Below are positions 3,012-28,548 of a DNA stretch of 64,000 nt, piece by piece; the first letter of the stretch is position 1; the number at the start of each line of letters is the position of its first letter. The notes below the pieces were generated by a model that saw nothing but the letters and a program-made list of their open reading frames with translations, did no database searches and was not told the origin of the DNA. The translations under genes were made by a program, and so were the position numbers. The DNA is from Escherichia phage PGN6866. Where the stretch lies: the sequence record MT127620; one strand, given 5' to 3'.

Positions 3012-4343
3012 GATATTCACCTTTCAATTGTAAGGGCGCTATTGCCCCGCTCTCTATGAGCTTATTTAAGTCACTATTAACTTAACTATAACCACTCGTT
3101 GTTAAGTAGTTATAGGTAAGCGGGGCGGTCTTATCAGGAGTTAACCTTGCCGCCCCCTTATCCGTGATGTTTCATCTGGTATCTTTAATTAGTCGCTATA
3201 AACGAAGCCGACCTGATAGCGATGATCAATCATCACAATAAGGCTATGCGTCCGACTCTATTTAATTACATTGCTGTAACCGTCGGCAATATCGTCTACT
3301 TTGTTTTCGCTCCCGCTTATCCTTTTGTATCAGCTCTCTATCGCTAGTCATCGCCCACTACGGGATACTATTGCGAAAGAGTCACTAACCGCCTAGTATT
3401 CCGGCGTTTTATATCTTTCGGCGGGTTTACTACATAACCCGACTATGTACTTTCATCTTGTGATGAATCTCAAGCCGTTCACATCGTAAACGTTCGCATT
3501 AAACCTTATTGTTAAATAGCAATTTGCCACTTTTTAACCACTCCCCGCCGCTCTCAATTGAGCGTTAATTCGTCGGGCTTGCCTACCCTGATTAACTTCT
3601 TTCACTGTAGCGCCTTGTTAGCGATGACCGCCGCTACCCTTAACCGTGGGCGATTAGCTTAAGTCTTTGCGTACACTCAATGAATCCGTTTATCAGTGGT
3701 GACGTTTCCAGTAAGGGAATGTAAAACTGTTTACCCTGATAATTTAGGGAGTTTTACGCCGTTTTATCTGGTATGTTATCCGATGGTTATTATCATCTAA
3801 CATATTCAACCGATATAGGAGAATGTTTAAATTATTAAAGAGCGGTAAATCTATCAGTGTGCTTTCTCACACTATGCAACTGTTAGCCGTTGTTACGCTT
3901 TTCACTGAAGCGATGATTTGCTTAGTGAGTGCTCATTATGAATCATGTTGTTTTCGCTGTCAACCGCTTTTTAATCTTTTTTCGTCGTTCCCGCTATTGG
4001 GAGGATATATCAATCAGCTTTATTTGATTGAAGATTAAGCGGTGAGGCTTAACTTATGATTCATATTGTTAAAGAGCGTTTTTTAGCCTTTTATAGTGTC
4101 TGCTAATCACTGCATCATTGAAGGCTTACTGATTCATTAACAGGACGCCTAACCCTGAACTACTCGCTGCACTATGTGCCACCTTTCCCGCGATACGTTG
4201 ATTTGGGAACTTGTTAGCGGTGTATCTGCTAACTTGTGGTTAGTATGGACTACTTTAACCACGTTTGCAACTCTTTTTATCATCTTCTTTTAATTCCTTT
4301 CCCTTATCTCGCGTGAATCTATGCGAAAGGGCAAGATGATAAG

Positions 4344-4359: not shown

Positions 4360-4450
4360 TTTTTAAGTCATCGCTGACTATGCTCACTATATATCAGGCT
4401 GTTTTCGGTGTCAATACTCTTTTTGAGAATATTTTCACTTTCTAGCCTGA

Positions 4451-4465
4451 TTTTTAAAGAGCGGG
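4451..4465. repeat. copy 2 of 15-mer TTTTTAAAGAGCGGG
   Basis: Direct reading. Confidence 0.8.
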
Positions 4466-4692
4466 GGCAAGTTTCCTTGCCTTGTATGTTTTACATCGTA
4501 CCCGATGAATTGAAGTATACATTAACCAATGATGGTTGCAATAGGGTAAAGCAAATTATTTTAAACTTTTTTATAGTGGGATAGATAAAAGAACGGGCGC
4601 GCGTGATACATCATAGGAAACGGCTTGTAAAGCAACAATAAGCGTCCTAAAACGCATCACAACGAGCTAAAAGGGAGTAAGGCATACAATCA

Positions 4693-4726
4693 CCTCATAA
4701 AAGAGAAAAGCCTCACTAGGAGGCTT
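4693..4726 (-). terminator. putative rho-independent terminator (minus strand)
   Basis: 7-bp stem AAGCCTC/GAGGCTT 4708..4726 followed by T-rich run on minus strand, downstream of gene 4802..5176. Confidence 0.4.
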
Positions 4727-4801
4727 ACAGGAAGGATTAGAGAATCAGATAAATTATGACCATAGGCATGACTACGGCACAATACAGGAGAAAGATTAAG
4801 C

Positions 4802-5176
4802 CTATGGATTTACACATTGACCGTTACCGGATGCCATTTCATTCATGGACTCATCAAAGAGCGTCAACGATGAGCGCATCAAGTGATCGACCGTAATTTG
4901 CTTACCAGTGGTTTCATTTACCAGTTGAATAGTTTTATCATATGATTGTACATGTTCAAAATCATTTACATGTAAAATAATAACCTTAGGTGACTTTTTA
5001 CCAGTTTCATAGTTTTCTACAATATAGGTGCACTGTAAACCGTCAACCGTAGCAGGGGAGAACGTTGCAGCCTTAACGCTACCCATAGCCGACAGCAGGA
5101 CACCTAACAGGAGAACGACAAGGAAGAAGCCTACAAATACTTTCACTACGAATTTAATAATACCCATGATAATCAA
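4802..5176 (-). CDS. membrane-anchored hypothetical protein
   Basis: 124 aa; N-terminal hydrophobic segment FVVKVFVGFFLVVLLLGVLL. Confidence 0.45.
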   Translation of the reverse strand: MIIMGIIKFVVKVFVGFFLVVLLLGVLLSAMGSVKAATFSPATVDGLQCTYIVENYETGKKSPKVIILHVNDFEHVQSYDKTIQLVNETTGKQITVDHLMRSSLTLFDESMNEMASGNGQCVNP

Positions 5177-5266
5177 CCTTTAGTTAGAGAATGTAAGAAT
5201 ACAGCATATCAGCGACGAATAACGCCACCGTAGCAACGAACAAGCAACGCCAAAAATAATCATGAA

Positions 5267-5542
5267 TCATTGGTTGCTATCCTCGCCAAAAAATGATACG
5301 CTGATTTGTTCCACTTCTTCCAGCGACAGAAGAATCCCGCGTTGGGCTAAATACTTCCCAATAGTTAGATAATCTTGCACTAAGCAGACAATAGGAAAGC
5401 GTATATTTTGTATCTCACCTTTGGAAAGAAAAGACAAATAACCAACGTCGGTTGATTCATCAAAGGATAGTGTAACGCCACCGTAATTATGCGTGTCAAT
5501 CAGCGCAATAGTTTCATTCCCCATAACGTTTCCAATCCTCAT
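5267..5542 (-). CDS. hypothetical protein
   Basis: 91-aa ORF; true start may be the internal Met at 5524. Confidence 0.35.
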   Translation of the reverse strand: MRIGNVMGNETIALIDTHNYGGVTLSFDESTDVGYLSFLSKGEIQNIRFPIVCLVQDYLTIGKYLAQRGILLSLEEVEQISVSFFGEDSNQ

Positions 5543-5744
5543 AATGATTAACTAGTGCCTGATAATCGTCAGATGATAACTCACCGCCTAAATAGGCAAC
5601 GGTTATGCGTGCTTTGTATTCTGACAAATTGCATAGCGCGGGAGCGGATAACCTGCTTTCGCCATAACATCCTAGCACTTCAACGATACAACCGTTTAAA
5701 GATACTGATTTATTAATCACGATACGGTTAGCCATTAATATCAT
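5514..5744 (-). CDS. hypothetical protein
   Basis: 76-aa ORF, short overlaps with neighbours. Confidence 0.35.
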   Translation of the reverse strand: MILMANRIVINKSVSLNGCIVEVLGCYGESRLSAPALCNLSEYKARITVAYLGGELSSDDYQALVNHYEDWKRYGE

Positions 5745-5991
5745 CCTTAATTAGCCCATGATTGAGCAGGTTAGCCAGCGACAAATCACCGTCAATATAG
5801 ATTGATTTGAAATCTTCACGGGTAATTTCGAAATCAGCAAAGGCTAGCCAATCTTTAAGAGGCTGATATTCCATCCTGCAAAAAGTGATAACAGGCAAGA
5901 TTATCTGACCATCAAGTGTATTAAACAGGATAGATTGCCCACCAACAAAACAAGAAAAGCCGTTTGATAATTTAACTTCTTTGATAGCCAT
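5728..5991 (-). CDS. hypothetical protein
   Basis: 87-aa ORF. Confidence 0.35.
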   Translation of the reverse strand: MAIKEVKLSNGFSCFVGGQSILFNTLDGQIILPVITFCRMEYQPLKDWLAFADFEITREDFKSIYIDGDLSLANLLNHGLIKDDING

Positions 5992-6016
5992 TTTTACACT
6001 CCTGAAAATAGGTTAT

Positions 6017-6508
6017 TTATTTACTAGCCTTAATACAGTTGGCTAAATTAACGTGAACGGTATAAACAGCGTTATCAGCGTTATTGTAAACAGTTGTGGC
6101 GATCATTGACTCATTAACTGGGCCATAGCTCACAAGATTGGTAACAGCTTTAACGTCTTTGTAACGTTGTACAGTGCCAAATGTCACCATGTCCGCATCG
6201 TTATCAGTACGCTTGAGAACTAGATCATTGTTAGGCTGATTATCTAACGTTTTAGATTGAAAGAGAACGCCATTATTAGTAACGTTGCTAAATTTCATCT
6301 TTAGCACAATGGTAGTGCCGTCACTATCCGCACCGTTGCAAATCATCCAACCTTTGTTGATGGAACTAACGAAAACACTAGCCGCATCAGTTGCAGGAGC
6401 AGGACTAGCAACAGCCTTGTCAGAAAGAGATGTGACCAGTGCACTAACACCAATCGCTGCAACCAGTGCATAACTTGCCAGATTAACTACCTGCATTGAT
6501 TTAGCCAT
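6017..6508 (-). CDS. secreted hypothetical protein (signal peptide)
   Basis: 163 aa; N-terminal hydrophobic signal-like segment then Ser/Thr/Asn-rich body. Confidence 0.5.
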   Translation of the reverse strand: MAKSMQVVNLASYALVAAIGVSALVTSLSDKAVASPAPATDAASVFVSSINKGWMICNGADSDGTTIVLKMKFSNVTNNGVLFQSKTLDNQPNNDLVLKRTDNDADMVTFGTVQRYKDVKAVTNLVSYGPVNESMIATTVYNNADNAVYTVHVNLANCIKASK

Positions 6509-6753: not shown

Positions 6754-7418
6754 TCAATCGATAGCTTCAATTTACTACTACTTAATAAGGAAAGCAAGTG
6801 CCACGGGTAAACTATTTCTACTATCTATATAGGACGGGGAACACACAACCGCAGAACAGACCACGGGGAAACATAGCAAGATAGTGCGGTAGTAATATAC
6901 CACTTAAATAATTAGTTAACTATTAATAGCATTACTCAAACATCAAAGACCATTCGCTACGCTCATGTACGCTGAAAAAAGAAGTAATAAAAGAAACAAT
7001 AAACATCAAACATAATCTTTCCACTTAATTAATACATACATCATTATTGCACTCATAATCATTACTATTGAAACTATTATCAACGTAACTATGGGGGAAT
7101 GGGGTAGTAACTAGGGGGTATTATTAGCTTATTCATAGTGCCTTAATCTAATCATTATACAGTGCTAGCCTTTCTCTCACTCTTTAAAGGGGAACTAAAT
7201 AAACGGGTAGGTAATGTATTGGGTAGTATACACGGGGAAAGAATAACGGGGAGTAGGCACGGGGAAAGGTGGAACGTTGAAAGGGAAGGTAAAGGCATTG
7301 CCAATAACCCTTTTTTAAATGAGGACTCCCCCTTTTTAGGAAACACGCGGGAAGCGGCTAGCCCCATTCGGTCAAATCAGAATTTTAAACTCTTATATAT
7401 AAGGTTGAAAGAGAACTT

Positions 7419-7586
7419 ATGTGGAAAATTAAGTTAATCATTAAGCAATTCAAATGTGATCATGAGTACTATCGGATACGCAAAGCTTACGGGGATGAAA
7501 GAGTTCACACCCTTTATAAGTCCACTTGGAGATGTAGTAAATGTGGCAAGCTTAAACACAGCACATGGATGGACAGACCTTAACGT
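7419..7586 (+). CDS. small zinc-ribbon-like protein (55 aa)
   Basis: ATG at 7419; MWKIKLIIKQFKCDHEYY...WRCSKCGK; weak Shine-Dalgarno; below track cut-off. Confidence 0.3.
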
Positions 7587-7625
7587 GACATGGCCTTAAC
7601 ATGAGGGTGCCTTAACATGAAGTCC
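7578..7625. repeat. three direct repeats CCTTAAC(A/G)TGA at 16-bp spacing, followed by CCTTTA-type repeats to about 7730
   Basis: CCTTAACGTGACATGG / CCTTAACATGAGGGTG / CCTTAACATGAAGTCC read directly. Confidence 0.7.
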
Positions 7626-7736
7626 CCTTTATGACATGCCCTTTACTTCAGCGTACACGGGTTGTTGGTATGAAGTGGCCTTTACGGGTAGGTCTTATGA
7701 TGTGCCCTTTATACTCTTATTCAGAGGAGAAGAATT

Positions 7737-7991
7737 ATGGATTTAGTATTAGACTTTTTATCAGAGATGGTGCCTCGGTTCAGAACAGAGACATACGCTT
7801 TCGTAATCAACAGTGACTCTGAAGAAGGGATGGAAGCTACATGCTTAGGTCGTCTTGTTGATTTAGATGATGAAACAGATTTCGATATTACAATTGATGT
7901 AAGTAGTTTTGGTTGGCTCTTCTTCAGAGCATTCCGCACTTACAGAAAAGAAACATACAAAGATTACAGCAAGGGAGATACAAATGAATAA
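7737..7991 (+). CDS. hypothetical acidic protein
   Basis: Shine-Dalgarno GAGGAG upstream; first gene of rightward block. Confidence 0.45.
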   Translation: MDLVLDFLSEMVPRFRTETYAFVINSDSEEGMEATCLGRLVDLDDETDFDITIDVSSFGWLFFRAFRTYRKETYKDYSKGDTNE

Positions 7992-8616
7992 TCCAATAAC
8001 CGCAGTGAATATGGAAGGTGTTTATGGAGGTAGTTTCCCTTCTGGTTCTCCTTTCCACACTAAAGCGATGGACCTTAACGATTACAATTCACAGCTATGT
8101 CGCTCTGGTTGCAGCTTACAGCATTTAGAAACTATGGGAAATGTTTCAGGCTTAGCTGTACAAGATTTATATAGTGGAAGTATTCTTAAACCAAATATTA
8201 CGGAGAACAAAAATATGTTAGATTTGATTCATACTACTCGTCCTAATTCTAAAACTAAAACACAACCATCTACTCTGGAAGTAGTTGAATATGAATCTAC
8301 TAAACACGATCACCTCCCTGACTATGCTCGTGCAATGATTGAGATGATTGAAGAAGCTGAATATGAAATGCTCCATGATTACATTACCTCCAAAGATGAA
8401 TGGCATCGTGATGTTCGAATCGAAGAGGATGGTACAGAAACAATTACGTGGATTCACAAGAGTGAGCTAGTAGACGACGCACTGCGAGACTACGAAAAAT
8501 TTTTGGTCGACGGCTCTATTCTTTTAGAGGAAGAGAAGGGTGCAGAACTTCCGTGGGAAGGTGAGACGATTGCTCTTGGTAAGATGTTTAACCTGTCCGT
8601 TGGTGATTGTAAGTAA
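7984..8616 (+). CDS. hypothetical protein
   Basis: ATG at 7984 with AGGGAGA upstream, ATGAATAA overlap with upstream stop; track start 7909 is an extension. Confidence 0.5.
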   Translation: MNNPITAVNMEGVYGGSFPSGSPFHTKAMDLNDYNSQLCRSGCSLQHLETMGNVSGLAVQDLYSGSILKPNITENKNMLDLIHTTRPNSKTKTQPSTLEVVEYESTKHDHLPDYARAMIEMIEEAEYEMLHDYITSKDEWHRDVRIEEDGTETITWIHKSELVDDALRDYEKFLVDGSILLEEEKGAELPWEGETIALGKMFNLSVGDCK

Positions 8617-8621
8617 TATTT

Positions 8622-8650
8622 GCCTCCATTGGGAGGCTTTTTGTGTTGTT
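8622..8650 (+). terminator. putative rho-independent terminator
   Basis: GCCTCC-ATTG-GGAGGC hairpin followed by TTTTTGTGTTGTT. Confidence 0.5.
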
Positions 8651-8672
8651 GATAATGTAGAAGGAGTATAAA

Positions 8673-9146
8673 ATGTTTGGAGAAAACGGAGAACTCACGC
8701 CTGCACAGGTAGCTGAGATTACAGGAAGATTACCCGGAGTAACGGAAGAACTTGAAGGCCGTGGTATGAACCCAAGCAATGGGAAGTTTCAAAAGGGAAA
8801 TAAATTCGGACGACCCAGAGGTAGTAGAGGTAAACTGACACAATTAATGTTGGACCGTGTTGCTGCAAGTCATTTGTCTCCTGATGAAGTGTTAATTCAA
8901 ATTTACGAAGATCCTAATATTCCACCTGATCTTAGATTCAAGGCTGCATCAAAAGTTGCAGATCTGGTATATCCTAAGGCGGCCTCTGTTGAAGTTAAGA
9001 TTGAGGAAGAGAATGTAATCAACGAAGAATCATTGAATGCACAAATCAAGGACTTCTTGACTGGAGCACTTGGTATCGACGTTATGCCTCCAGAAGAAGA
9101 CAACTCTGAGGACGCTGAAAAGGGGGAGGAAGCGGACGAGAGTTAA
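8673..9146 (+). CDS. putative terminase small subunit
   Basis: 157-aa basic N-terminus and acidic C-terminus, immediately upstream of large terminase; positional inference. Confidence 0.4.
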   Translation: MFGENGELTPAQVAEITGRLPGVTEELEGRGMNPSNGKFQKGNKFGRPRGSRGKLTQLMLDRVAASHLSPDEVLIQIYEDPNIPPDLRFKAASKVADLVYPKAASVEVKIEEENVINEESLNAQIKDFLTGALGIDVMPPEEDNSEDAEKGEEADES

Positions 9147-9307
9147 GTAAAGGAAACAGGGAGCTGTCGAAGATCATCTGATTAGCAATCTGAGGATTGT
9201 TATAGTTTTATTGCCACGATGTTCTTTTGCAGTGTACCCTTGTAGTGGAGAGGGGAGGTTCTTTGACGAAGGGACTTTCCCTTTTCTATTTTTAAACTGG
9301 AGGAAGT

Positions 9308-10849
9308 ATGTCATTAGATAAACAAATTTATGAAGCTCTAACTGGTAACAACCTTAGTGTAGAGGAAAAGAAAGCACTATTGAATATGTTGAAAGAGCGT
9401 GACCAATGGAGGAAGTATAATAAGATTTTGTCTTTCAAGGCGTATGACTTCCAAAAGAAATTTTATGCAGCAGGATTGAAGCATCGCTTTAGATTCTTGT
9501 GTGCAGCGAACCGTGTTGGTAAATCTTATAGCGAGGCATACGAGTTTGCTTGTCATGTCACAGGTCGCTACCCAACTTGGTGGACAGGATATAAATTTAA
9601 AAGACCTATCTTAGCATGGGCAGTTGGTATTACAGGGGATTCCACAAGGAAAGTATTGCAAAAGGAATTGTTTGGTACACCTATCGGAAAGGATACAAAT
9701 TTATTAGGGACAGGTGTCATTCCTCGTGATGCTATCGTCATTGACACGATAGAACGAGATGGTAACAAACTTCAAATCGTACAAATCAAACATCAAAACG
9801 AAAGAGGAGAGTTTGACGGTTTAAGTACATTAGAATTCCGTTCAACCCAACAGGGTGAACACACATTGATGGGTGCAACAGTTGACTACATTTGGTTAGA
9901 CGAAGAAGATCCATACGAGTCTATGGCTATATTCGCACAGTGCGTCACACGTACACTCACAACTAAAGGTCTAGTTACAATTACAGCTACACCAGAGAAC
10001 GGTTTAACTGAACTGGTAGATAAATTTATGAAAGGTGAAGGGGATGAGAACACAGGTTCTCTGTATTTCCAGAATGCTTCTTGGTGGGATGCTCATGCAG
10101 ACCTAGGTGGACACATCACTGACCAAGATATAAAAGATATGACTGAAGGTATTCCAGCGTGGCAGTTAGAGATGCGTTCGAAAGGTATGCCATTGTTAGG
10201 AAGTGGTTTGATTTATGATGTATCGGATGACACAATTAAATGTGAACCATTCGAAATTCCTGATACGTGGAAACGTGTCTGTGCAATTGATATTGGTATT
10301 GATCACCCAACTGCTGCTGTTTGGACAGCTTACGATGCAAACACGGATACTATCTATGTTTACGACTCATATAAAGAAGGTGGCTTTACTCCAGTGTATC
10401 ATGCTCCAGCTATTAATGGTCGTGGTCAGTGGATTCCTGTCATCCTGCCGCACGATGCGGACAATATTGAGAAAGGTAGTGGCTCATCTGTTGCTCAATT
10501 CTATAAGAATGCAGGAGTTAACGTACAGAGTGAGACCTTCTACAACAAAATTGGAATGGATGGTAAAAAGAACTTCTTTGTAGAACCCGGAATCACAGAT
10601 ATCCGAGAAAGAATGATGAGTGGACGCTTTAAAATCTTTAACACAGCCGCTAATGCTAAGCTATTCGAAGAGAAAGCTAGATATCACCGTAAGGTTGGTA
10701 AGATTATTAAAGAACATGATGACTTAATGGATGCGATGCGCTATTCAGCGTGCTCTGTTACACATCGTGGTCGCTCTAAACATGACGTTAGCTACGGAAG
10801 TGCTTCTCTGTATGAGGCAAACGTAAGCAGATGGAATCAGAGTTACTAA
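9308..10849 (+). CDS. terminase large subunit
   Basis: 513 aa; Walker-A-like NRVGKS, Walker-B-like DYIWLDEED, nuclease-type acidic residues; precedes portal. Confidence 0.8.
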   Translation: MSLDKQIYEALTGNNLSVEEKKALLNMLKERDQWRKYNKILSFKAYDFQKKFYAAGLKHRFRFLCAANRVGKSYSEAYEFACHVTGRYPTWWTGYKFKRPILAWAVGITGDSTRKVLQKELFGTPIGKDTNLLGTGVIPRDAIVIDTIERDGNKLQIVQIKHQNERGEFDGLSTLEFRSTQQGEHTLMGATVDYIWLDEEDPYESMAIFAQCVTRTLTTKGLVTITATPENGLTELVDKFMKGEGDENTGSLYFQNASWWDAHADLGGHITDQDIKDMTEGIPAWQLEMRSKGMPLLGSGLIYDVSDDTIKCEPFEIPDTWKRVCAIDIGIDHPTAAVWTAYDANTDTIYVYDSYKEGGFTPVYHAPAINGRGQWIPVILPHDADNIEKGSGSSVAQFYKNAGVNVQSETFYNKIGMDGKKNFFVEPGITDIRERMMSGRFKIFNTAANAKLFEEKARYHRKVGKIIKEHDDLMDAMRYSACSVTHRGRSKHDVSYGSASLYEANVSRWNQSY

Positions 10850-13400: not shown

Positions 13401-14476
13401 TGCCACAAGATAATTATATTGACCCGAACGATTTTAAATCTTTCCTCCAACTGGATGACCTGAAAGGTTCTTTCAAAGAAGAACTCGGTCGATTAGAATC
13501 TGAACAAGAACCAGAAGTGGACATTGACGATGAGTTCCCGGAAAAAGACGGTGACGATTTCGACTTTGATACCGACCTTCTCGGTGAAAGCGATGAGCTT
13601 AAGTTCGAAGATGAAGATGGTTGGGAAGATCGTGAAGAGGAAGGCGAAGTCGAAGAAGATGAAGATGAATCCTCTGAAGCAGAAGAACAAGAGGAAGAAG
13701 ATTCAAGCGATGCAGAGTATGAAGATGATTCTGCTGACGGTGAAGGTGAAGTCTTTGATGTAGACTACGAAACCGTTATCACCCTTCCTGATGGACGTGA
13801 GATGACTATTGAAGAACTTTCTAATGGCTATCTTACTGGTGCTGATATGACAGAACGAGAATCAACTCTTCAGCGTCATATGGAAGCATTCGAGGAACGT
13901 GTAGTAGGTTTGAAGGATGTATTAGAACTAGCGTCTTTAGAAGCAGACCGAGTAATTGAAGATTATAACGGTTTTGATTGGGACAAGCTTGCAGTAGAAG
14001 ATCCTCAAGCATATGTTGAAAACAAACGTTTCCTAGAGAAGTACACAGCTCGCCGTCAACAGCTTGAACAGGCTCAGGTCCGTATTAAGCAGGAAGCAGC
14101 AGCTAAAGAGCAGGAAGCTTTCCAAGCCAAGAGTATTGAATGTGTTAATATTCTGAAACGTGAGATTCCAAATTGGGATGAAAACTTATATCAAAACTTA
14201 ATGCAATACGCAATTGACTTAGGTGCTACTGAAGAAGACGTACTGAAGGAAAACCGTCCGTCTATTTTCCTAGCTCTCCATAAAGCATACCAATTTGATA
14301 AAGGTAAGCAACAGGTGATGGCTAAGATTAAACGTCCCGGTGCTCCACGCAAGGTTGTGAAGTCTGATGCTGCAAAGTCTCGCACTTCCAATAAGCCCGA
14401 CAACGCTAAGGTTGCCAAGGCATTCGCAGAGGGTCGCGTTAGTCACGAAGACGCATTCAAATTCCTCGTAGACTAA
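13400..14476 (+). CDS. scaffolding protein
   Basis: 358 aa, extremely acidic N-terminal half, helical C-terminus, immediately upstream of capsid gene. Confidence 0.55.
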   Translation: MPQDNYIDPNDFKSFLQLDDLKGSFKEELGRLESEQEPEVDIDDEFPEKDGDDFDFDTDLLGESDELKFEDEDGWEDREEEGEVEEDEDESSEAEEQEEEDSSDAEYEDDSADGEGEVFDVDYETVITLPDGREMTIEELSNGYLTGADMTERESTLQRHMEAFEERVVGLKDVLELASLEADRVIEDYNGFDWDKLAVEDPQAYVENKRFLEKYTARRQQLEQAQVRIKQEAAAKEQEAFQAKSIECVNILKREIPNWDENLYQNLMQYAIDLGATEEDVLKENRPSIFLALHKAYQFDKGKQQVMAKIKRPGAPRKVVKSDAAKSRTSNKPDNAKVAKAFAEGRVSHEDAFKFLVD

Positions 14477-14516
14477 TCGACAAATTAATTATTAATAGTA
14501 TAGGAGCTAACATAAC

Positions 14517-15575
14517 ATGGCTAATCCAACTTTATTTGTATCGTATGACCAGAATGGTAAAAAACTTTCTTTTGCTAACTGGATTTCTGTTCTGTCCCCT
14601 CAGGATACCCCGTTCGTATCTATGACCGGTAAAGAGTCTATCAACCAGACTATCTTTAGCTGGCAGACCGATGCACTGGCAAGCGTTGACGGTAATAACG
14701 CACACGTCGAAGGCTCTCGTGCTGAAGACGGCGAAATGAAACCGACTGTTATCAAATCTAACGTTACTCAGATTCTGCGTAAGGTTGTTCGTGTTTCTGA
14801 TACTGCTAACACCACCGCTAACTACGGTCGTGGTCGTGAACTGATGTATCAGCTGGAGAAGAAAGGTAAAGAGATCAAGCGTGACCTCGAGAAAATCCTT
14901 CTGTCCGGTCAGGCTCGTACCGACGTTCTGGCTGACCAGTACCTGACTAACTCTGCAACTGATCCTGCAACTGTTGGTCTGAACGACACTCATGCAGCTC
15001 GTAAGACTGGTGCATTCCAGTTCCTGTGTGCTCACGGTGGTCTGGCTGGTGGTGTTGTTGACAAGACCAAGAATGGTCCTGCTGACCCGGATACTGGTGC
15101 AGTAACTGTTAAAGTTGCACAGAATGCTTCTAACCCGACCACTAACATTGGTTTCGACGAAGCTGATATCTTTGATATGACTCTGCAACTGTATACCGCT
15201 GGTTCTGAAGCAGATATCATCATGATTAACCCGGCTCATGCTAAGATCTTTGCTGGTCTGCAAGAAAATACTCAGGGTTCACGTAAGCGTATCTTTGAGA
15301 ACACCAAGCAGTTCATCTACGAAGTTAACAGCATCACTGACCCGCTGGGCCAGAGCTACAAAATCATCGTTAACCGTTGGATGCCTACCGATGCAGTTTA
15401 CTTCTTCCGTAGCGCTGACTGGACCCAGATGGTTCTGCGTGCTCCGAAACGTACTGAACTGGCGAAAGATGGTTCTTACGAGAAGTGGATGATTGAAATG
15501 GAAGTTGGTCTGCGTCACCGCAACCCGTATGCTTCCGGCGTTCTGTTCACTGCTGCGGGAAAGGTGGCGGCGTAA
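14517..15575 (+). CDS. major capsid protein
   Basis: 352 aa; strongly optimised codon usage, strong Shine-Dalgarno, position after scaffold. Confidence 0.8.
   Translation: MANPTLFVSYDQNGKKLSFANWISVLSPQDTPFVSMTGKESINQTIFSWQTDALASVDGNNAHVEGSRAEDGEMKPTVIKSNVTQILRKVVRVSDTANTTANYGRGRELMYQLEKKGKEIKRDLEKILLSGQARTDVLADQYLTNSATDPATVGLNDTHAARKTGAFQFLCAHGGLAGGVVDKTKNGPADPDTGAVTVKVAQNASNPTTNIGFDEADIFDMTLQLYTAGSEADIIMINPAHAKIFAGLQENTQGSRKRIFENTKQFIYEVNSITDPLGQSYKIIVNRWMPTDAVYFFRSADWTQMVLRAPKRTELAKDGSYEKWMIEMEVGLRHRNPYASGVLFTAAGKVAA
15557..15563 (+). other. -1 programmed ribosomal frameshift slippery heptamer G_GGA_AAG
   Basis: X_XXY_YYZ heptamer in capsid zero frame, 10 nt before the stop; the -1 frame is open from here to 16099. 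Confidence 0.6.
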
Positions 15576-16099
15576 CAGTAGACAGTGTGACTGTTAGCCC
15601 TGCGTCTTTAGCTAGTCTAGAGACAGGGGCTACTCGGCAGTTCACTGCAAGCGCGGAGAAAAGTGATGGTTCTACCGAAACAACTGGCTTTACTTGGTCA
15701 GTGACAGGAGGTGGTTCTATCACTCAGTCGGGTTTGTATACTGCTCCGAGTGCGTCTCAATCCACTGATGTATCCATTACTGCAACTTTAGAAGGTGTTT
15801 CTGGAACAGCAACCATTTCTGAAATTGTTGCTCCTACTCCTACTATTGTAGCTAAGGGTCCAATTACGGGTAAAACTGGTGGTTCCTCCACTAATTTCAC
15901 TACCATGTTTACTGTAACTAATTCTGCTGCTGCGGATTACACGTTTGTTGTAACTCCTACAGAAGCTGGTACAGTAAGCGCAGCTGGTGCGTTAACCTTA
16001 GATTCTGCTGCAAGTGGCGAAGTTACTGTTCAAGCAAGTTTGACAGCTGATCCGTCCATCAATGCAACATGCACTTTTACTGGTGTAACACCTGCTTAA
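15564..16099 (+). CDS. Ig-like (Big_2-type) C-terminal extension of the capsid protein, made by -1 frameshift
   Basis: -1 frame reads GKGGGVTVDSVTVSPASL...; Big_2-like pattern (SVTVSP..G.T.QFTA...TWSVTGGGSIT.SGLYTA...ITATL); no independent ATG or Shine-Dalgarno. Confidence 0.6.
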
Positions 16100-16105
16100 A
16101 ACTAG

Positions 16106-16135
16106 ACCCTGCCTTCGGGCGGGGTTTTTTCGTTT
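16106..16135 (+). terminator. rho-independent terminator after the capsid gene
   Basis: 8-bp stem ACCCTGCC / GGCGGGGT with UUCG loop followed by TTTTTTCGTTTT. Confidence 0.6.
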
Positions 16136-16200
16136 TAAGACCTATACAAGCAAGTGTGTAATGTATATTCTTTGTCTACATATAACAAGGAGGACAACCT

Positions 16201-27516: not shown

Positions 27517-28548
27517 ATGGCATACGGAATATGGACACAACCAGTAGGGCCGGGGCCAGCAACCCCCGCTCCCTTATTTATTGATAGCGGAAGCACTTTC
27601 CCTCAGTTCAAGAATAGTATAAGAGGGAGTTTTAACTTTAATGGGGCTGGGAGATCTTTCCCTATTAGTGGATGGGATGGCAGTGGTCAGATAGTTATTG
27701 TTCCTACCGGTTCTTTATGCTGGCAATGGGAAGTCCCTCCTAACCTAGTTCCTGATGTTTATTGTGTGAATAATATCTACGTAGAAAACAGTTCCTCTTT
27801 TAGAGTTACTCTGAATCAGAACCCCGGCAGTAACCCCTTGTTTGACTGTGGGTTCAACGTATATCAAATATGGCCTAGAGCGGATAGGAATTACGGAATT
27901 ACCTTTTCTAATACAGCAGACTACTTCTCGATATCTGATAGTGGGGTCGTCGGTCAATGTATTTGGGCTTGGCAGGGGACCATAAACAATGCCCTTCAGA
28001 TACCAAATATCGGTGGGTTCAATATGACCAATGCTGTTGTGTTTGCTAATTGGTCTGATGGAGGGATAGGACTATCTTATACTTCTGATGACAGGGTTAT
28101 TCGTGTTTATCAGAACAGACCTTACATAAACGGCAACACTAATGAGGGTGGTTCTGTGTTTGCTAGAGTTGCAGTATTCTGCAATGGAGCAGGAGTTCCG
28201 GAACATAATGGAGGTTTGAATATTTACTCTCCGGGTACCACGCAATGTGTCTTCTCTACTAACAGAACACCTTTCACTGTTGATACTTTTATAGGCTCAG
28301 GAGGTGGTAACACAGGAATGGCATACCCTATGATACCTCTTACCTCTGGAATAGGTGCGATAAAAGGCCAAGGCAGTGGATGGAGATATCAGCAAATGAG
28401 ATCTCACACAATGAGTGGTTCTACGATAGGAACGGGCTATGGAAGGTATTTATTTCAGTGGGATCAGAATTACGACCTAGGAGCTGATACTGTAGTTAAT
28501 TTATCAGTTCCTGTAATAAATGCAGCTAAGGTTTTTGCTGGACTATAA
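27517..28548 (+). CDS. virion-associated protein
   Basis: 343 aa, Gly/Asn-rich, coupled to upstream gene. Confidence 0.4.
   Translation: MAYGIWTQPVGPGPATPAPLFIDSGSTFPQFKNSIRGSFNFNGAGRSFPISGWDGSGQIVIVPTGSLCWQWEVPPNLVPDVYCVNNIYVENSSSFRVTLNQNPGSNPLFDCGFNVYQIWPRADRNYGITFSNTADYFSISDSGVVGQCIWAWQGTINNALQIPNIGGFNMTNAVVFANWSDGGIGLSYTSDDRVIRVYQNRPYINGNTNEGGSVFARVAVFCNGAGVPEHNGGLNIYSPGTTQCVFSTNRTPFTVDTFIGSGGGNTGMAYPMIPLTSGIGAIKGQGSGWRYQQMRSHTMSGSTIGTGYGRYLFQWDQNYDLGADTVVNLSVPVINAAKVFAGL

What the first reader, a model, noticed from the sequence alone, without database searches (positions are those of the whole stretch)
15557..16099. Capsid protein with Ig-like C-terminal extension via -1 frameshift at G_GGA_AAG
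The heptamer GGGAAAG lies in the capsid zero frame 10 nt before the stop. The -1 frame continues without a stop for about 180 codons through a GGG linker into a Big_2-type Ig-like domain, and that ORF has no ATG or Shine-Dalgarno of its own. GGGAAAG is the slippery sequence of the lambda G/GT frameshift, and frameshift-appended Ig-like domains on capsid proteins are known in tailed phages. A minor long capsid form is predicted.
Basis: partly seen in the sequence, partly recalled or inferred. Interest (0 to 1): 0.6.

Follow-up and report, generated by a model that had tools for sequence, protein, structure and literature searches.

The report
Known capsid frameshift adding Ig domains
This phiEco32-like E. 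coli phage very probably makes a minor, longer form of its major capsid protein by a -1 ribosomal slip at GGGAAAG that adds two Ig-like domains; the reading is right, but the same event is already published and annotated for this phage group.

Summary
Observation confirmed.

The window is a Kuravirus (phiEco32-like) phage. The major capsid gene (14517-15575) carries G_GGA_AAG at 15557-15563 in the correct slip register, 9 nt before its stop. The -1 frame then runs 178 codons to 16099, giving a 527-aa, 55.7-kDa fusion.

- **Extension:** it folds confidently as two tandem Big_2-type Ig-like domains, not one.
- **No independent start:** the GTG at 15587 that GenBank records use as a start has no Shine-Dalgarno and is lost in five relatives. 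The -1-frame peptide upstream of it is conserved by synonymous changes.
- **Codon choice:** the heptamer uses the only GGA among the gene's 26 Gly codons.
- **Conservation:** the heptamer is kept in register across three Gordonclarkvirinae genera and in Privateer-like phages (57% capsid identity). Other lineages have G_GTA_AAG or A_AAA_AAG at the same spot. 7-11-like phages instead carry a second capsid gene with the Ig extension fused in frame.
- **Prior reports:** the frameshift is described for SU10 (2014), Privateer (2021) and YF01 and its group (2023). It is annotated in the GenBank records of Paul and Privateer, with phiEco32 (2008) cited as precedent.

No protein evidence exists for this genome, and a stimulatory structure is unproven.

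The parts
14502..14506 (+). Shine-Dalgarno (AGGAG) of the major capsid gene; serves both the short and the long product
   Evidence: Sequence; anti-SD duplex -6.5 kcal/mol
14517..15575 (+). Major capsid protein, short form (352 aa, 38.7 kDa), HK97-fold SU10_MCP family
   Evidence: ORF; Pfam PF17236 SU10_MCP E=6.4e-77; phrog_1328 major head protein E=1e-117; 98-100% identical to Kuravirus capsid proteins; mass
15557..15563 (+). Slippery heptamer G_GGA_AAG in X_XXY_YYZ register with the capsid frame
   Evidence: it contains the only GGA of the gene's 26 Gly codons; conserved in register in phiEco32, ShigP1, EK5, IME267, KBNP1711, EP335, Bas88, NJ01, SU10, Privateer and CsaP_009
15563..16099 (+). 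-1 frame extension (178 codons plus stop); with 14517-15563 it gives the 527-aa, 55.7-kDa long capsid form ...TAAGK-GGGVTVDS...
   Evidence: purifying selection acts in the -1 frame from the heptamer onward; phrog_13745 Ig domain containing protein
15575..15823 (+). Ig-like domain 1 (extension residues ~5-87), Big_2 type
   Evidence: Pfam Big_2 E=3.2e-4, 21.0 bits, just under the 22.8-bit cutoff; AlphaFold model pLDDT 96.6, beta-sandwich; Foldseek match to LigA tandem Big domains 8gyr, E=3e-11
15836..16096 (+). Ig-like domain 2 (extension residues ~92-178), no Pfam match
   Evidence: AlphaFold model; Foldseek tandem-Ig matches; phrog_33551 covers residues 115-178
15587..15589 (+). GTG used as the start of a separate 'Ig domain containing protein' CDS in most GenBank relatives; probably just an internal Val codon of the long form
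   Evidence: Annotations; no SD; replaced by GTA or ATA in KBNP1711, EP335, Bas88, NJ01 and L019; gene callers choose inconsistent starts in homologues, many of them inside domain 1
15569..15599 (+). Candidate downstream stimulatory hairpin (10 bp with 1 bulge, 5-nt spacer); its 5' arm contains the capsid stop codon UAA. Function unproven
   Evidence: Fold z=-2.3, 5 of 200 shuffles as good; 8 of 10 pairs invariant, one GC/GU, no compensatory change; stronger in Bas88 (z=-3.6) and absent in some lineages
16104..16137 (+). Intrinsic terminator closing the capsid transcription unit, placed after the Ig ORF and not after the capsid stop
   Evidence: 10-bp stem, 6 GC pairs, T tract; in relatives without an extension the terminator-like hairpin follows the capsid stop directly

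Best explanation
Programmed -1 ribosomal frameshifting near the end of the major capsid gene.

Most ribosomes read ...GCG GGA AAG GUG GCG GCG UAA and release the 352-aa capsid protein. A minority slip while tRNA-Gly and tRNA-Lys occupy GGA and AAG. The tRNAs re-pair one base back on GGG and AAA, and the ribosome continues in the -1 frame with GGU GGC GGC GUA. This makes a 527-aa protein: the complete HK97-fold capsid protein minus its last three residues, then a Gly3 linker and two tandem Big_2-type Ig-like domains.

The long form would co-assemble into the prolate head as a minor subunit and display the Ig domains on the capsid surface. If the slip rate is like the figures quoted for lambda G/GT (~3.5%) or T7 gene 10 (~10%), that is roughly 25-70 of the ~715 capsid subunits.

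Shown here: the register, the open -1 frame, the absence of an own start signal, the conservation, the selection acting in the -1 frame, and the fold of the extension. Inferred: that slippage actually occurs in this phage, its rate, incorporation of the long form into virions, outward display, and any role in weak binding to surface glycans.
For: (1) Geometry. The heptamer is in register 9 nt before the stop, and the -1 frame is open for 178 codons.

(2) Uniqueness. It is the only in-register X_XXY_YYZ heptamer in the gene, the only GGGAAAG copy in register in a long ORF, and the only one of 27 in-register heptamers whose -1 frame runs far past the stop.

(3) Codon choice. GGA is used once in 26 Gly codons, at the slip site. 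Three of the four rare GCG Ala codons lie in the last 6 codons.

(4) No independent initiation. The SD duplex at GTG 15587 is -1.7 kcal/mol, against -6.1 to -11.4 for neighbouring genes. The GTG is lost in 5 relatives. Homologue starts are inconsistent, and many truncate domain 1.

(5) Selection. Substitutions from the heptamer onward are mostly synonymous only in the -1 frame.

(6) Deep conservation. GGGAAAG is in register in Kuravirus, Nieuwekanaalvirus, Suseptimavirus and Privateervirus, with extensions of 169 to 541 aa that are unrelated in sequence between the Gordonclarkvirinae and Privateervirus groups. G_GTA_AAG (LAh_8, L022-24) and A_AAA_AAG (L031) occupy the same position in other lineages.

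(7) Covalent linkage is the natural state. 7-11/SE131-type phages have a second capsid paralog with Ig domains fused in frame (586 aa). The L022 frameshift extension matches the C-terminal part of the 583-position capsid family profile phrog_1328. Foldseek links the extension to the Paul 894-aa and 7-11 585-aa capsid proteins.

(8) One transcription unit. The terminator comes only after the Ig ORF.

(9) Literature and records. SU10 paper PMC4281155. Privateer paper PMC7881722, with two SDS-PAGE bands and the minor capsid protein detected by MS. YF01 paper PMC9965538, which generalises to the group. Joined-CDS annotations in Privateer and Paul, the latter noted 'Frameshift at GGGAAAG; Frameshift in PhiEco32 ... 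as well (PMID 18294652)'.
Against: There is no protein-level evidence for this genome.

For the closest structurally studied relative, SU10, the cryo-EM head shows no extra density. The YF01 paper states that its SDS-PAGE lacks a long band. That is explained by a 1-nt insertion that stops SU10's -1 frame after 11 codons, but it also shows the long form is dispensable in the laboratory.

The 38.5 and 55.4 kDa values in the SU10 proteomics paper match the theoretical masses. Given the stop in the deposited SU10 sequence, they are doubtful as evidence.

I could not read the primary phiEco32 paper (Savalia 2008), so its evidence is cited second-hand.

No downstream stimulator is established. The hairpin is only marginally better than shuffles and has no covariation, and there is no SD-like stimulator upstream.

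The Pfam Big_2 score is slightly below threshold.
Confidence: 0.88

Rival explanations
1. The Ig-like ORF is a separate gene, as annotated in most GenBank relatives. It would be translated from GTG 15587, either by direct initiation or by termination-reinitiation of ribosomes that have just finished the capsid protein 11 nt upstream, and would give a free 170-aa head-decoration protein.
For: GTG 15587 lies 11 nt after the capsid stop, a distance compatible with translational coupling. phiEco32, IME267, EK5, ShigP1 and others annotate it this way. The SU10 cryo-EM authors treated gp10 as a possible detachable minor capsid protein.
Against: There is no SD. The GTG is GTA or ATA in KBNP1711, EP335, Bas88, NJ01 and L019, yet the ORF and the peptide upstream of that codon are conserved with synonymous changes. 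In Privateer, LAh_8 and L022-24 the -1 ORFs likewise lack a consistent start; for example, the CsaP_009 annotation starts 177 nt downstream. Alternative ATG starts chosen by gene callers remove about 24 residues of domain 1. The rare GGA codon at the slip site would go unexplained.
Confidence: 0.07
2. The heptamer and the open -1 frame are relics. The Ig ORF is no longer expressed in this phage, or only at a negligible level, as appears to be the case in SU10.
For: SU10 carries a frame-breaking insertion and is viable, with no long form seen by cryo-EM or, as reported in the YF01 paper, by SDS-PAGE. Vp_R1, A24, APT65 and LUZ24 have no extension at all.
Against: In this window the 178-codon frame is intact. 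It is 95% identical to homologues with conservative variation. It is under purifying selection and folds with pLDDT 96.6. All sampled Gordonclarkvirinae except SU10 keep it, in agreement with the YF01 paper.
Confidence: 0.04
3. The frame change happens at the RNA level. Transcriptional slippage by RNA polymerase on the GGGAAA run would produce a fraction of mRNAs with one base fewer or more, rather than ribosomal slippage.
For: The outcome, a fusion protein in the -1 frame, would be the same and cannot be told apart from the sequence alone.
Against: From general knowledge, productive transcriptional slippage needs longer homopolymer runs (about 8 or more A or T), and here the runs are 3 G and 3 A. 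The conserved feature across lineages is the tRNA-slip pattern N_NNA_AAG in the correct codon register, whether GGGAAAG, GGTAAAG or AAAAAAG. That register matters only for ribosomes.
Confidence: 0.01

Closest known systems
Major capsid protein long isoform of Kuravirus-group phages (phiEco32, Paul, YF01; described in PMC4281155 and PMC9965538, and annotated in GenBank MN045231)
   Same: Same gene, same heptamer GGGAAAG at the same position (9 nt before the stop), same -1 direction, same Gly-rich linker and first Ig domain. The window is 98-99% identical in DNA to phiEco32 and IMEP8 across this region.
   Different: Essentially nothing. The extension here is the short 178-aa, two-domain version found in phiEco32, against about 540 aa in Paul, YF01 and Bas88 and 372 aa in EP335.
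Proteus phage Privateer major/minor capsid frameshift (PMC7881722; NC_048861 joined CDS)
   Same: Homologous capsid protein (57% identity), the same GGGAAAG heptamer in register at the 3' end, and a -1 extension of 169 aa made of Ig-like domains. [quoted passage not shown]
   Different: The heptamer abuts the stop codon directly (GGGAAAG-TAA). The extension is unrelated in sequence: it matches Hoc-like head-decoration and tail-protein Ig families in PHROGs rather than phrog_13745.
Phage lambda G/GT tail assembly chaperone frameshift
   Same: Identical slippery heptamer G_GGA_AAG, the -1 direction, and a low-level fixed-ratio product. The rate of ~3.5% is as quoted in PMC9965538.
   Different: It is a different gene class (tail chaperone, not a virion capsid subunit). 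The lambda site lies near the end of G, but its product GT is an assembly factor and is not incorporated into virions (general knowledge).
T7/T3 gene 10A/10B capsid frameshift
   Same: A -1 frameshift a few codons before the capsid stop yields a minor, C-terminally extended capsid protein that co-assembles into the head. The ~10% rate and the T3 Ig-like extension are as quoted in PMC9965538. T7-like 'minor capsid proteins' appear among the structural matches.
   Different: The capsid family is unrelated at sequence level and the slippery sequence is different. The extension in T7 is much shorter (general knowledge).
Salmonella phage 7-11 / SE131 long major head protein
   Same: Homologous capsid domain followed by Big_2-type Ig domains in one polypeptide (585-586 aa). 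It is a structural match to the window's extension.
   Different: No recoding. The long form is a second, paralogous capsid gene with the extension in frame, next to a short paralog, and there is no slippery heptamer.

Membership tests
Programmed -1 ribosomal frameshift site (X_XXY_YYZ type) | Slippery heptamer X_XXY_YYZ in register with the upstream reading frame | tested here: met
   G_GGA_AAG at 15557-15563, with codon phase verified against the ATG at 14517; it is the only such heptamer in the gene
Programmed -1 ribosomal frameshift site (X_XXY_YYZ type) | An overlapping -1 ORF of substantial length that lacks its own initiation signals | tested here: met
   178 codons; no SD at the only start-like codon; that codon is not conserved; homologue starts are inconsistent
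Programmed -1 ribosomal frameshift site (X_XXY_YYZ type) | Phylogenetic conservation of the slip site, its register and the -1 ORF, with coding constraint in the -1 frame from the site onward | tested here: met
   Conserved in 11 relatives across 4 genera; variant slippery heptamers sit at the same spot in further lineages; syn:nonsyn is 7:3 and 11:4 in the -1 frame against 2:7 and 1:14 in the zero frame
Programmed -1 ribosomal frameshift site (X_XXY_YYZ type) | Stimulatory element (downstream hairpin or pseudoknot 5-9 nt away, or an upstream SD-like sequence) | tested here: inconclusive
   Hairpin 15569-15599 with a 5-nt spacer: z=-2.3; conserved but with 0 compensatory pairs. Analogous hairpins occur in Privateer, L022 and Bas88 (z=-3.6), and none in LAh_8 or L031. 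No upstream SD-like motif is visible in the sequence
Programmed -1 ribosomal frameshift site (X_XXY_YYZ type) | Trans-frame protein product demonstrated | not testable with these tools
   Only literature on relatives is available: Privateer bands and MS; an SU10 MS claim contradicted by the stop in the SU10 -1 frame and by cryo-EM; phiEco32 evidence is cited second-hand
SU10_MCP (Pfam PF17236) HK97-fold major capsid protein | Match above the Pfam gathering score over the full domain | tested here: met
   259.4 bits against a cutoff of 24.1, residues 12-344
Big_2 bacterial Ig-like domain (Pfam PF02368) | Sequence match at or above the Pfam gathering score | tested here: not met
   21.0 bits against a cutoff of 22.8, E=3.2e-4, extension residues 6-83 only; some homologues carry a precomputed PF02368 hit
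Big_2 bacterial Ig-like domain (Pfam PF02368) | Ig-like beta-sandwich fold resembling solved Big domains | tested here: met
   Model pLDDT 96.6 with two beta-sandwiches. The top PDB match is the LigA tandem Big domains 8gyr, E=3e-11; Big_2-CBM56 7r3t and the phi29 capsid protein (prohead entry 6qvk) also match

The most novel reading that the evidence does not exclude
The C-terminal end of this capsid family may be a recoding hot-spot where equivalent solutions have been swapped repeatedly. These are three different Lys-AAG slippery heptamers (G_GGA_AAG, G_GTA_AAG, A_AAA_AAG), an in-frame duplicated capsid paralog (7-11/SE131), and complete loss (SU10, Vp_R1). In addition, the conserved hairpin that begins 5 nt after the heptamer and contains the capsid stop codon might be a real stimulator that sets the ratio of long to short subunits in the prolate head. 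Neither point was described in the papers I could read.
Probability: 0.3. Interest if true: 0.35.

Novelty: already known. Interest (0 to 1): 0.12.

Why it matters
The value is practical rather than conceptual. Most GenBank records of this phage group, including the phiEco32 reference, still annotate the Ig ORF as a free-standing GTG-start gene. The SU10 cryo-EM study looked for it as a separate minor capsid protein. The evidence here argues that those annotations should be replaced by a joined capsid CDS.

Surface-displayed Ig-like domains on capsids are thought to mediate weak adhesion to carbohydrates on cells or mucus. That bears on the host-finding and therapeutic behaviour of Kuraviruses, which are often proposed for phage therapy.

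The site also gives a natural C-terminal display position on a 715-subunit prolate head.

Tried and rejected
- **Enrichment of the word GGGAAAG in the window:** not enriched (10 copies against 7.1 expected). Occurrence alone is therefore no evidence; the argument rests on register, position and conservation.
- **Covariation support for the downstream hairpin:** none. Folding z-scores are marginal in the window, so the stimulator is left open.
- **The stem-loop proposed in the SU10 paper (CTGCTGC/GGGAAAG/GYGGCGG):** it folds at -11.4 kcal/mol but with z=-1.5. It places the slip site in its own loop, so it would be melted when the ribosome decodes the site. I rejected it as a stimulator by inference.
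- **Primary phiEco32 paper (Savalia 2008):** not held in the library. One PMC id guessed from memory was wrong.
- **Sequence search of the extension against PDB chains:** only weak hits, E of at least 0.059. The fold search was needed instead.
- **tRNA and Rfam scans of the window:** nothing found, so no known frameshift-element RNA family matches.
- **Promoter scan between the capsid stop and the Ig ORF:** no plus-strand promoter-like site.
- **Transcriptional slippage:** considered and rejected because the homopolymer runs are too short.
Full report
**What is in the sequence**

The window is a phiEco32-like podophage of E. coli (genus Kuravirus, subfamily Gordonclarkvirinae). Region 14400-16200 is 98-99% identical to phages IMEP8, Bas91, EK5 and phiEco32. 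ORF 14517-15575 encodes a 352-aa HK97-fold major capsid protein (MCP). It matches Pfam SU10_MCP at E=6e-77 and phrog_1328.

The heptamer GGGAAAG occupies 15557-15563. Codon GGA begins at 15558, in phase with the ATG, so the register is G_GGA_AAG. The zero frame ends ...TAAGKVAA-stop (15573-15575). A ribosome that slips back one base reads GGU GGC GGC GUA... and continues for 178 codons to the TAA ending at 16099. The result is a 527-aa, 55.7-kDa product, against 38.7 kDa for the short form.

**Is it more than chance?**

The word GGGAAAG is not enriched in the window (10 copies against 7.1 expected), so its presence alone means nothing. Four other facts carry the argument.

- It is the only one of the ten copies in slip register inside a long ORF.
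- It is the only in-register X_XXY_YYZ heptamer in the MCP gene.
- Of 27 in-register classical heptamers in all ORFs of at least 100 aa on both strands, it is the only one whose -1 frame runs well beyond the zero-frame stop: 521 nt, with the next best at 47 nt.
- The MCP uses strongly biased codons (21 GGT, 4 GGC, 0 GGG). Its single GGA is the one in the heptamer. Three of its four rare GCG Ala codons lie in the last six codons. The slip site is therefore built from codons the gene otherwise avoids.

**Rival explanation: a separate gene starting at GTG 15587**

Most GenBank relatives annotate it this way. Five results argue against it.

- The GTG has no Shine-Dalgarno. Its anti-SD duplex is -1.7 kcal/mol, about the median of random positions, while the five neighbouring genes plus the capsid gene itself have -6.1 to -11.4.
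- In KBNP1711, EP335, Bas88, NJ01 and L019 the codon is GTA or ATA, so no start exists there. The -1-frame peptide upstream of it, GG(G/S)VTVD(S/T)VTVSP, is still conserved.
- Against KBNP1711 and Bas88, codon differences downstream of the heptamer are 7:3 and 11:4 synonymous:nonsynonymous in the -1 frame. They are 2:7 and 1:14 in the zero frame. Coding constraint therefore switches frame at the heptamer.
- In database homologues the called starts are inconsistent (MTVSPA..., MASL..., MSDGST...), and many cut about 24 residues into the first Ig domain.
- No terminator or promoter lies between the MCP stop and the Ig ORF. A strong intrinsic terminator (16104-16127 plus T tract) follows the Ig ORF. 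In relatives without an extension, a terminator-like hairpin directly follows the MCP stop.

**Comparative evidence**

| Lineage | Feature at the MCP 3' end | -1 extension |
|---|---|---|
| phiEco32, ShigP1, EK5, IME267, KBNP1711, EP335, Bas88, NJ01, two metagenomic contigs | GGGAAAG in register | 178 to 541 aa |
| Privateer, Cronobacter phage CsaP_009 (57% MCP identity) | GGGAAAG directly before the stop | 169 aa, unrelated Ig-like sequence |
| Aeromonas phage LAh_8, three metagenomic contigs (L022-24) | one-base variant G_GTA_AAG at the same position | 109-190 aa, Ig-like |
| Contig L031 | A_AAA_AAG in register | 45 aa |
| Salmonella phages of the 7-11/SE131 type | no heptamer; a short MCP gene followed by a paralog | Ig-like extension fused in frame (585-586 aa) |
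| Vp_R1, A24, APT65, LUZ24 | no heptamer | none |

The L022 frameshift extension matches the C-terminal half of the MCP family profile phrog_1328. Covalent attachment of Ig domains to a subset of capsid subunits is thus the conserved outcome, and -1 slippage on a Lys AAG codon is the usual way of getting it.

SU10 keeps the heptamer, but a 1-nt insertion stops the -1 frame after 11 codons. The YF01 paper noted this too. It explains why the SU10 cryo-EM head shows no extra density.

**The extension**

Pfam finds only a sub-threshold Big_2 match in residues 6-83 (21.0 against 22.8 bits). An AlphaFold model built on 22 homologues is very confident (pLDDT 96.6). It shows two beta-sandwich domains at about residues 5-87 and 92-178.

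- The best solved match is the tandem Big domains of Leptospira LigA (8gyr, E=3e-11). A capsid protein chain of the phi29 prohead structure (6qvk) also matches.
- The best viral matches are the 894-aa major capsid protein of phage Paul, the NJ01 Ig-like protein, and the 585-aa major head protein of phage 7-11.

Relatives expand it by adding further domains.

**Stimulatory element**

A hairpin at 15569-15599 begins 5 nt after the heptamer and contains the MCP stop codon in its 5' arm. It has 10 bp and one bulge. It folds somewhat better than shuffles (z=-2.3, 5 of 200).

Across 8 distinct Gordonclarkvirinae sequences, 8 of its 10 pairs never vary, one alternates GC/GU, and none shows a compensatory change. 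The same bases also encode VTV...VTV. Hairpins at similar spacing occur in Bas88 (z=-3.6), Privateer (z=-1.9) and L022, but not in LAh_8 or L031. This is inconclusive.

The stem-loop proposed in the SU10 paper puts the slip site in its own loop and is not distinguishable from shuffles (z=-1.5). No Rfam family matches anywhere in the window.

**Comparison with what is known**

The mechanism is the classical tandem-slippage -1 frameshift. It uses the lambda G/GT heptamer and has the same biological logic as T7/T3 gene 10A/10B. It is already described for this phage group.

- The Privateer paper reports the same signal, two capsid bands, and MS detection of the minor capsid protein (PMC7881722).
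- The YF01 paper states that the MCP of 'YF01 and other group phages' is made in two forms by slippage at GGGAAAG, with extended isoforms of about 500-550 aa in most members (PMC9965538).
- The GenBank records of Privateer and Paul carry joined CDS features. Paul's note reads 'Frameshift at GGGAAAG; Frameshift in PhiEco32 major capsid protein product as well (PMID: 18294652)'.

I could not read the 2008 phiEco32 paper itself.

**Verdict**

Novelty is nil, since the same event is already known for congeners that are 98% identical.

The residual uncertainty is experimental. No junction-level protein evidence was available to me for any member. The slip rate and any stimulator are unknown, and the function of the displayed Ig domains is inferred.

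Minor points that may go beyond the papers I read are the alternative heptamers at the homologous site in other lineages, the in-frame paralog solution in 7-11-like phages, the two-domain architecture, and the conserved hairpin containing the stop codon.

Noticed in passing
L011 (SU10, KM044272) 2891-2932: SU10 keeps GGGAAAG, but a 1-nt insertion about 25 nt downstream (GACACTGTCTACTG against GACAGTGTGACTG) stops the -1 frame after 11 codons. It also puts the Ig domain in the capsid zero frame behind two stop codons (TAA, TAG). This agrees with the YF01 paper and explains the missing long form in the SU10 cryo-EM study. It also makes the 55.4-kDa 'alternative form' in the SU10 proteomics paper doubtful.
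   Followed up: yes
L008/L026 (Aeromonas phage LAh_8) 4412-4690; L022, L023, L024 4412-4933: At the position homologous to the window's heptamer these lineages carry G_GTA_AAG, one base different and with poor P-site re-pairing. The -1 frame is still open for 109-190 codons encoding Ig-like domains. In LAh_8 the downstream piece is annotated 'putative tail protein'. This is probably an unannotated capsid frameshift on a weaker slip site.
   Followed up: partly
L031 (IMGVR_UViG_3300033688_000038) 4421-4555: A 125-kb metagenomic relative has the dnaX-type heptamer A_AAA_AAG in register 6 nt before the capsid stop. Its -1 extension is only 45 aa, Pro/Lys-rich (SKKGVNPPPTVDPTL...), with no Ig domain.
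   Followed up: partly
L007 (Salmonella phage SE131) 2485-5261; also L029, L035; L009 (A24); L010 (APT65): Several relatives carry tandem capsid gene paralogs instead of a frameshift. SE131 and 7-11-like phages have a 312-aa capsid gene followed by a 586-aa paralog with Ig-like domains fused in frame. A24 has two capsid paralogs and APT65 has three. Gene duplication looks like an alternative route to short and long capsid subunits.
   Followed up: partly
L013 (EP335) 4553-5677; L015 (Bas88) 4541-6172; L036 (Paul) 7246-9929: The frameshift extension is modular. It is 178 aa (two Ig domains) in the window and phiEco32, 372 aa in EP335, and about 541 aa in Bas88, Paul and YF01. Extra Ig-like domains are inserted between or appended after the two core domains (see also P0004 and P0008-P0011).
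   Followed up: partly
window 15563-16096 against 14517-15572: Codon usage relaxes sharply after the slip site. GC3 drops from 0.47 to 0.26. ACA (0 of 30 Thr codons in the capsid gene) becomes 10 of 37, and AGT goes from 0 to 6. This fits a region translated at a much lower level than the capsid body.
   Followed up: partly
window 15587; L001, L002, L003, L012-L015: Public records, including the RefSeq entries for phiEco32, IME267 and KBNP1711, annotate the Ig ORF as a separate CDS with differing starts. ShigP1 even names it 'major head protein'. Only Paul and Privateer carry the joined frameshift CDS. This is an annotation inconsistency worth correcting.
   Followed up: yes
window 1-64000: No tRNA genes and no Rfam families at gathering threshold were found anywhere in the 64-kb window. 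The relative Privateer is reported to carry four tRNAs.
   Followed up: no
window 7235-7241 and 7262-7268 (+); 27596-27602 and 27656-27662 (-); 4183-4189 and 4297-4303 (-): Six of the other nine GGGAAAG copies occur as three same-strand pairs, 27 to 114 nt apart. None is in slip register with a long ORF. Whether the pairs belong to short repeats or regulatory motifs was not examined.
   Followed up: no
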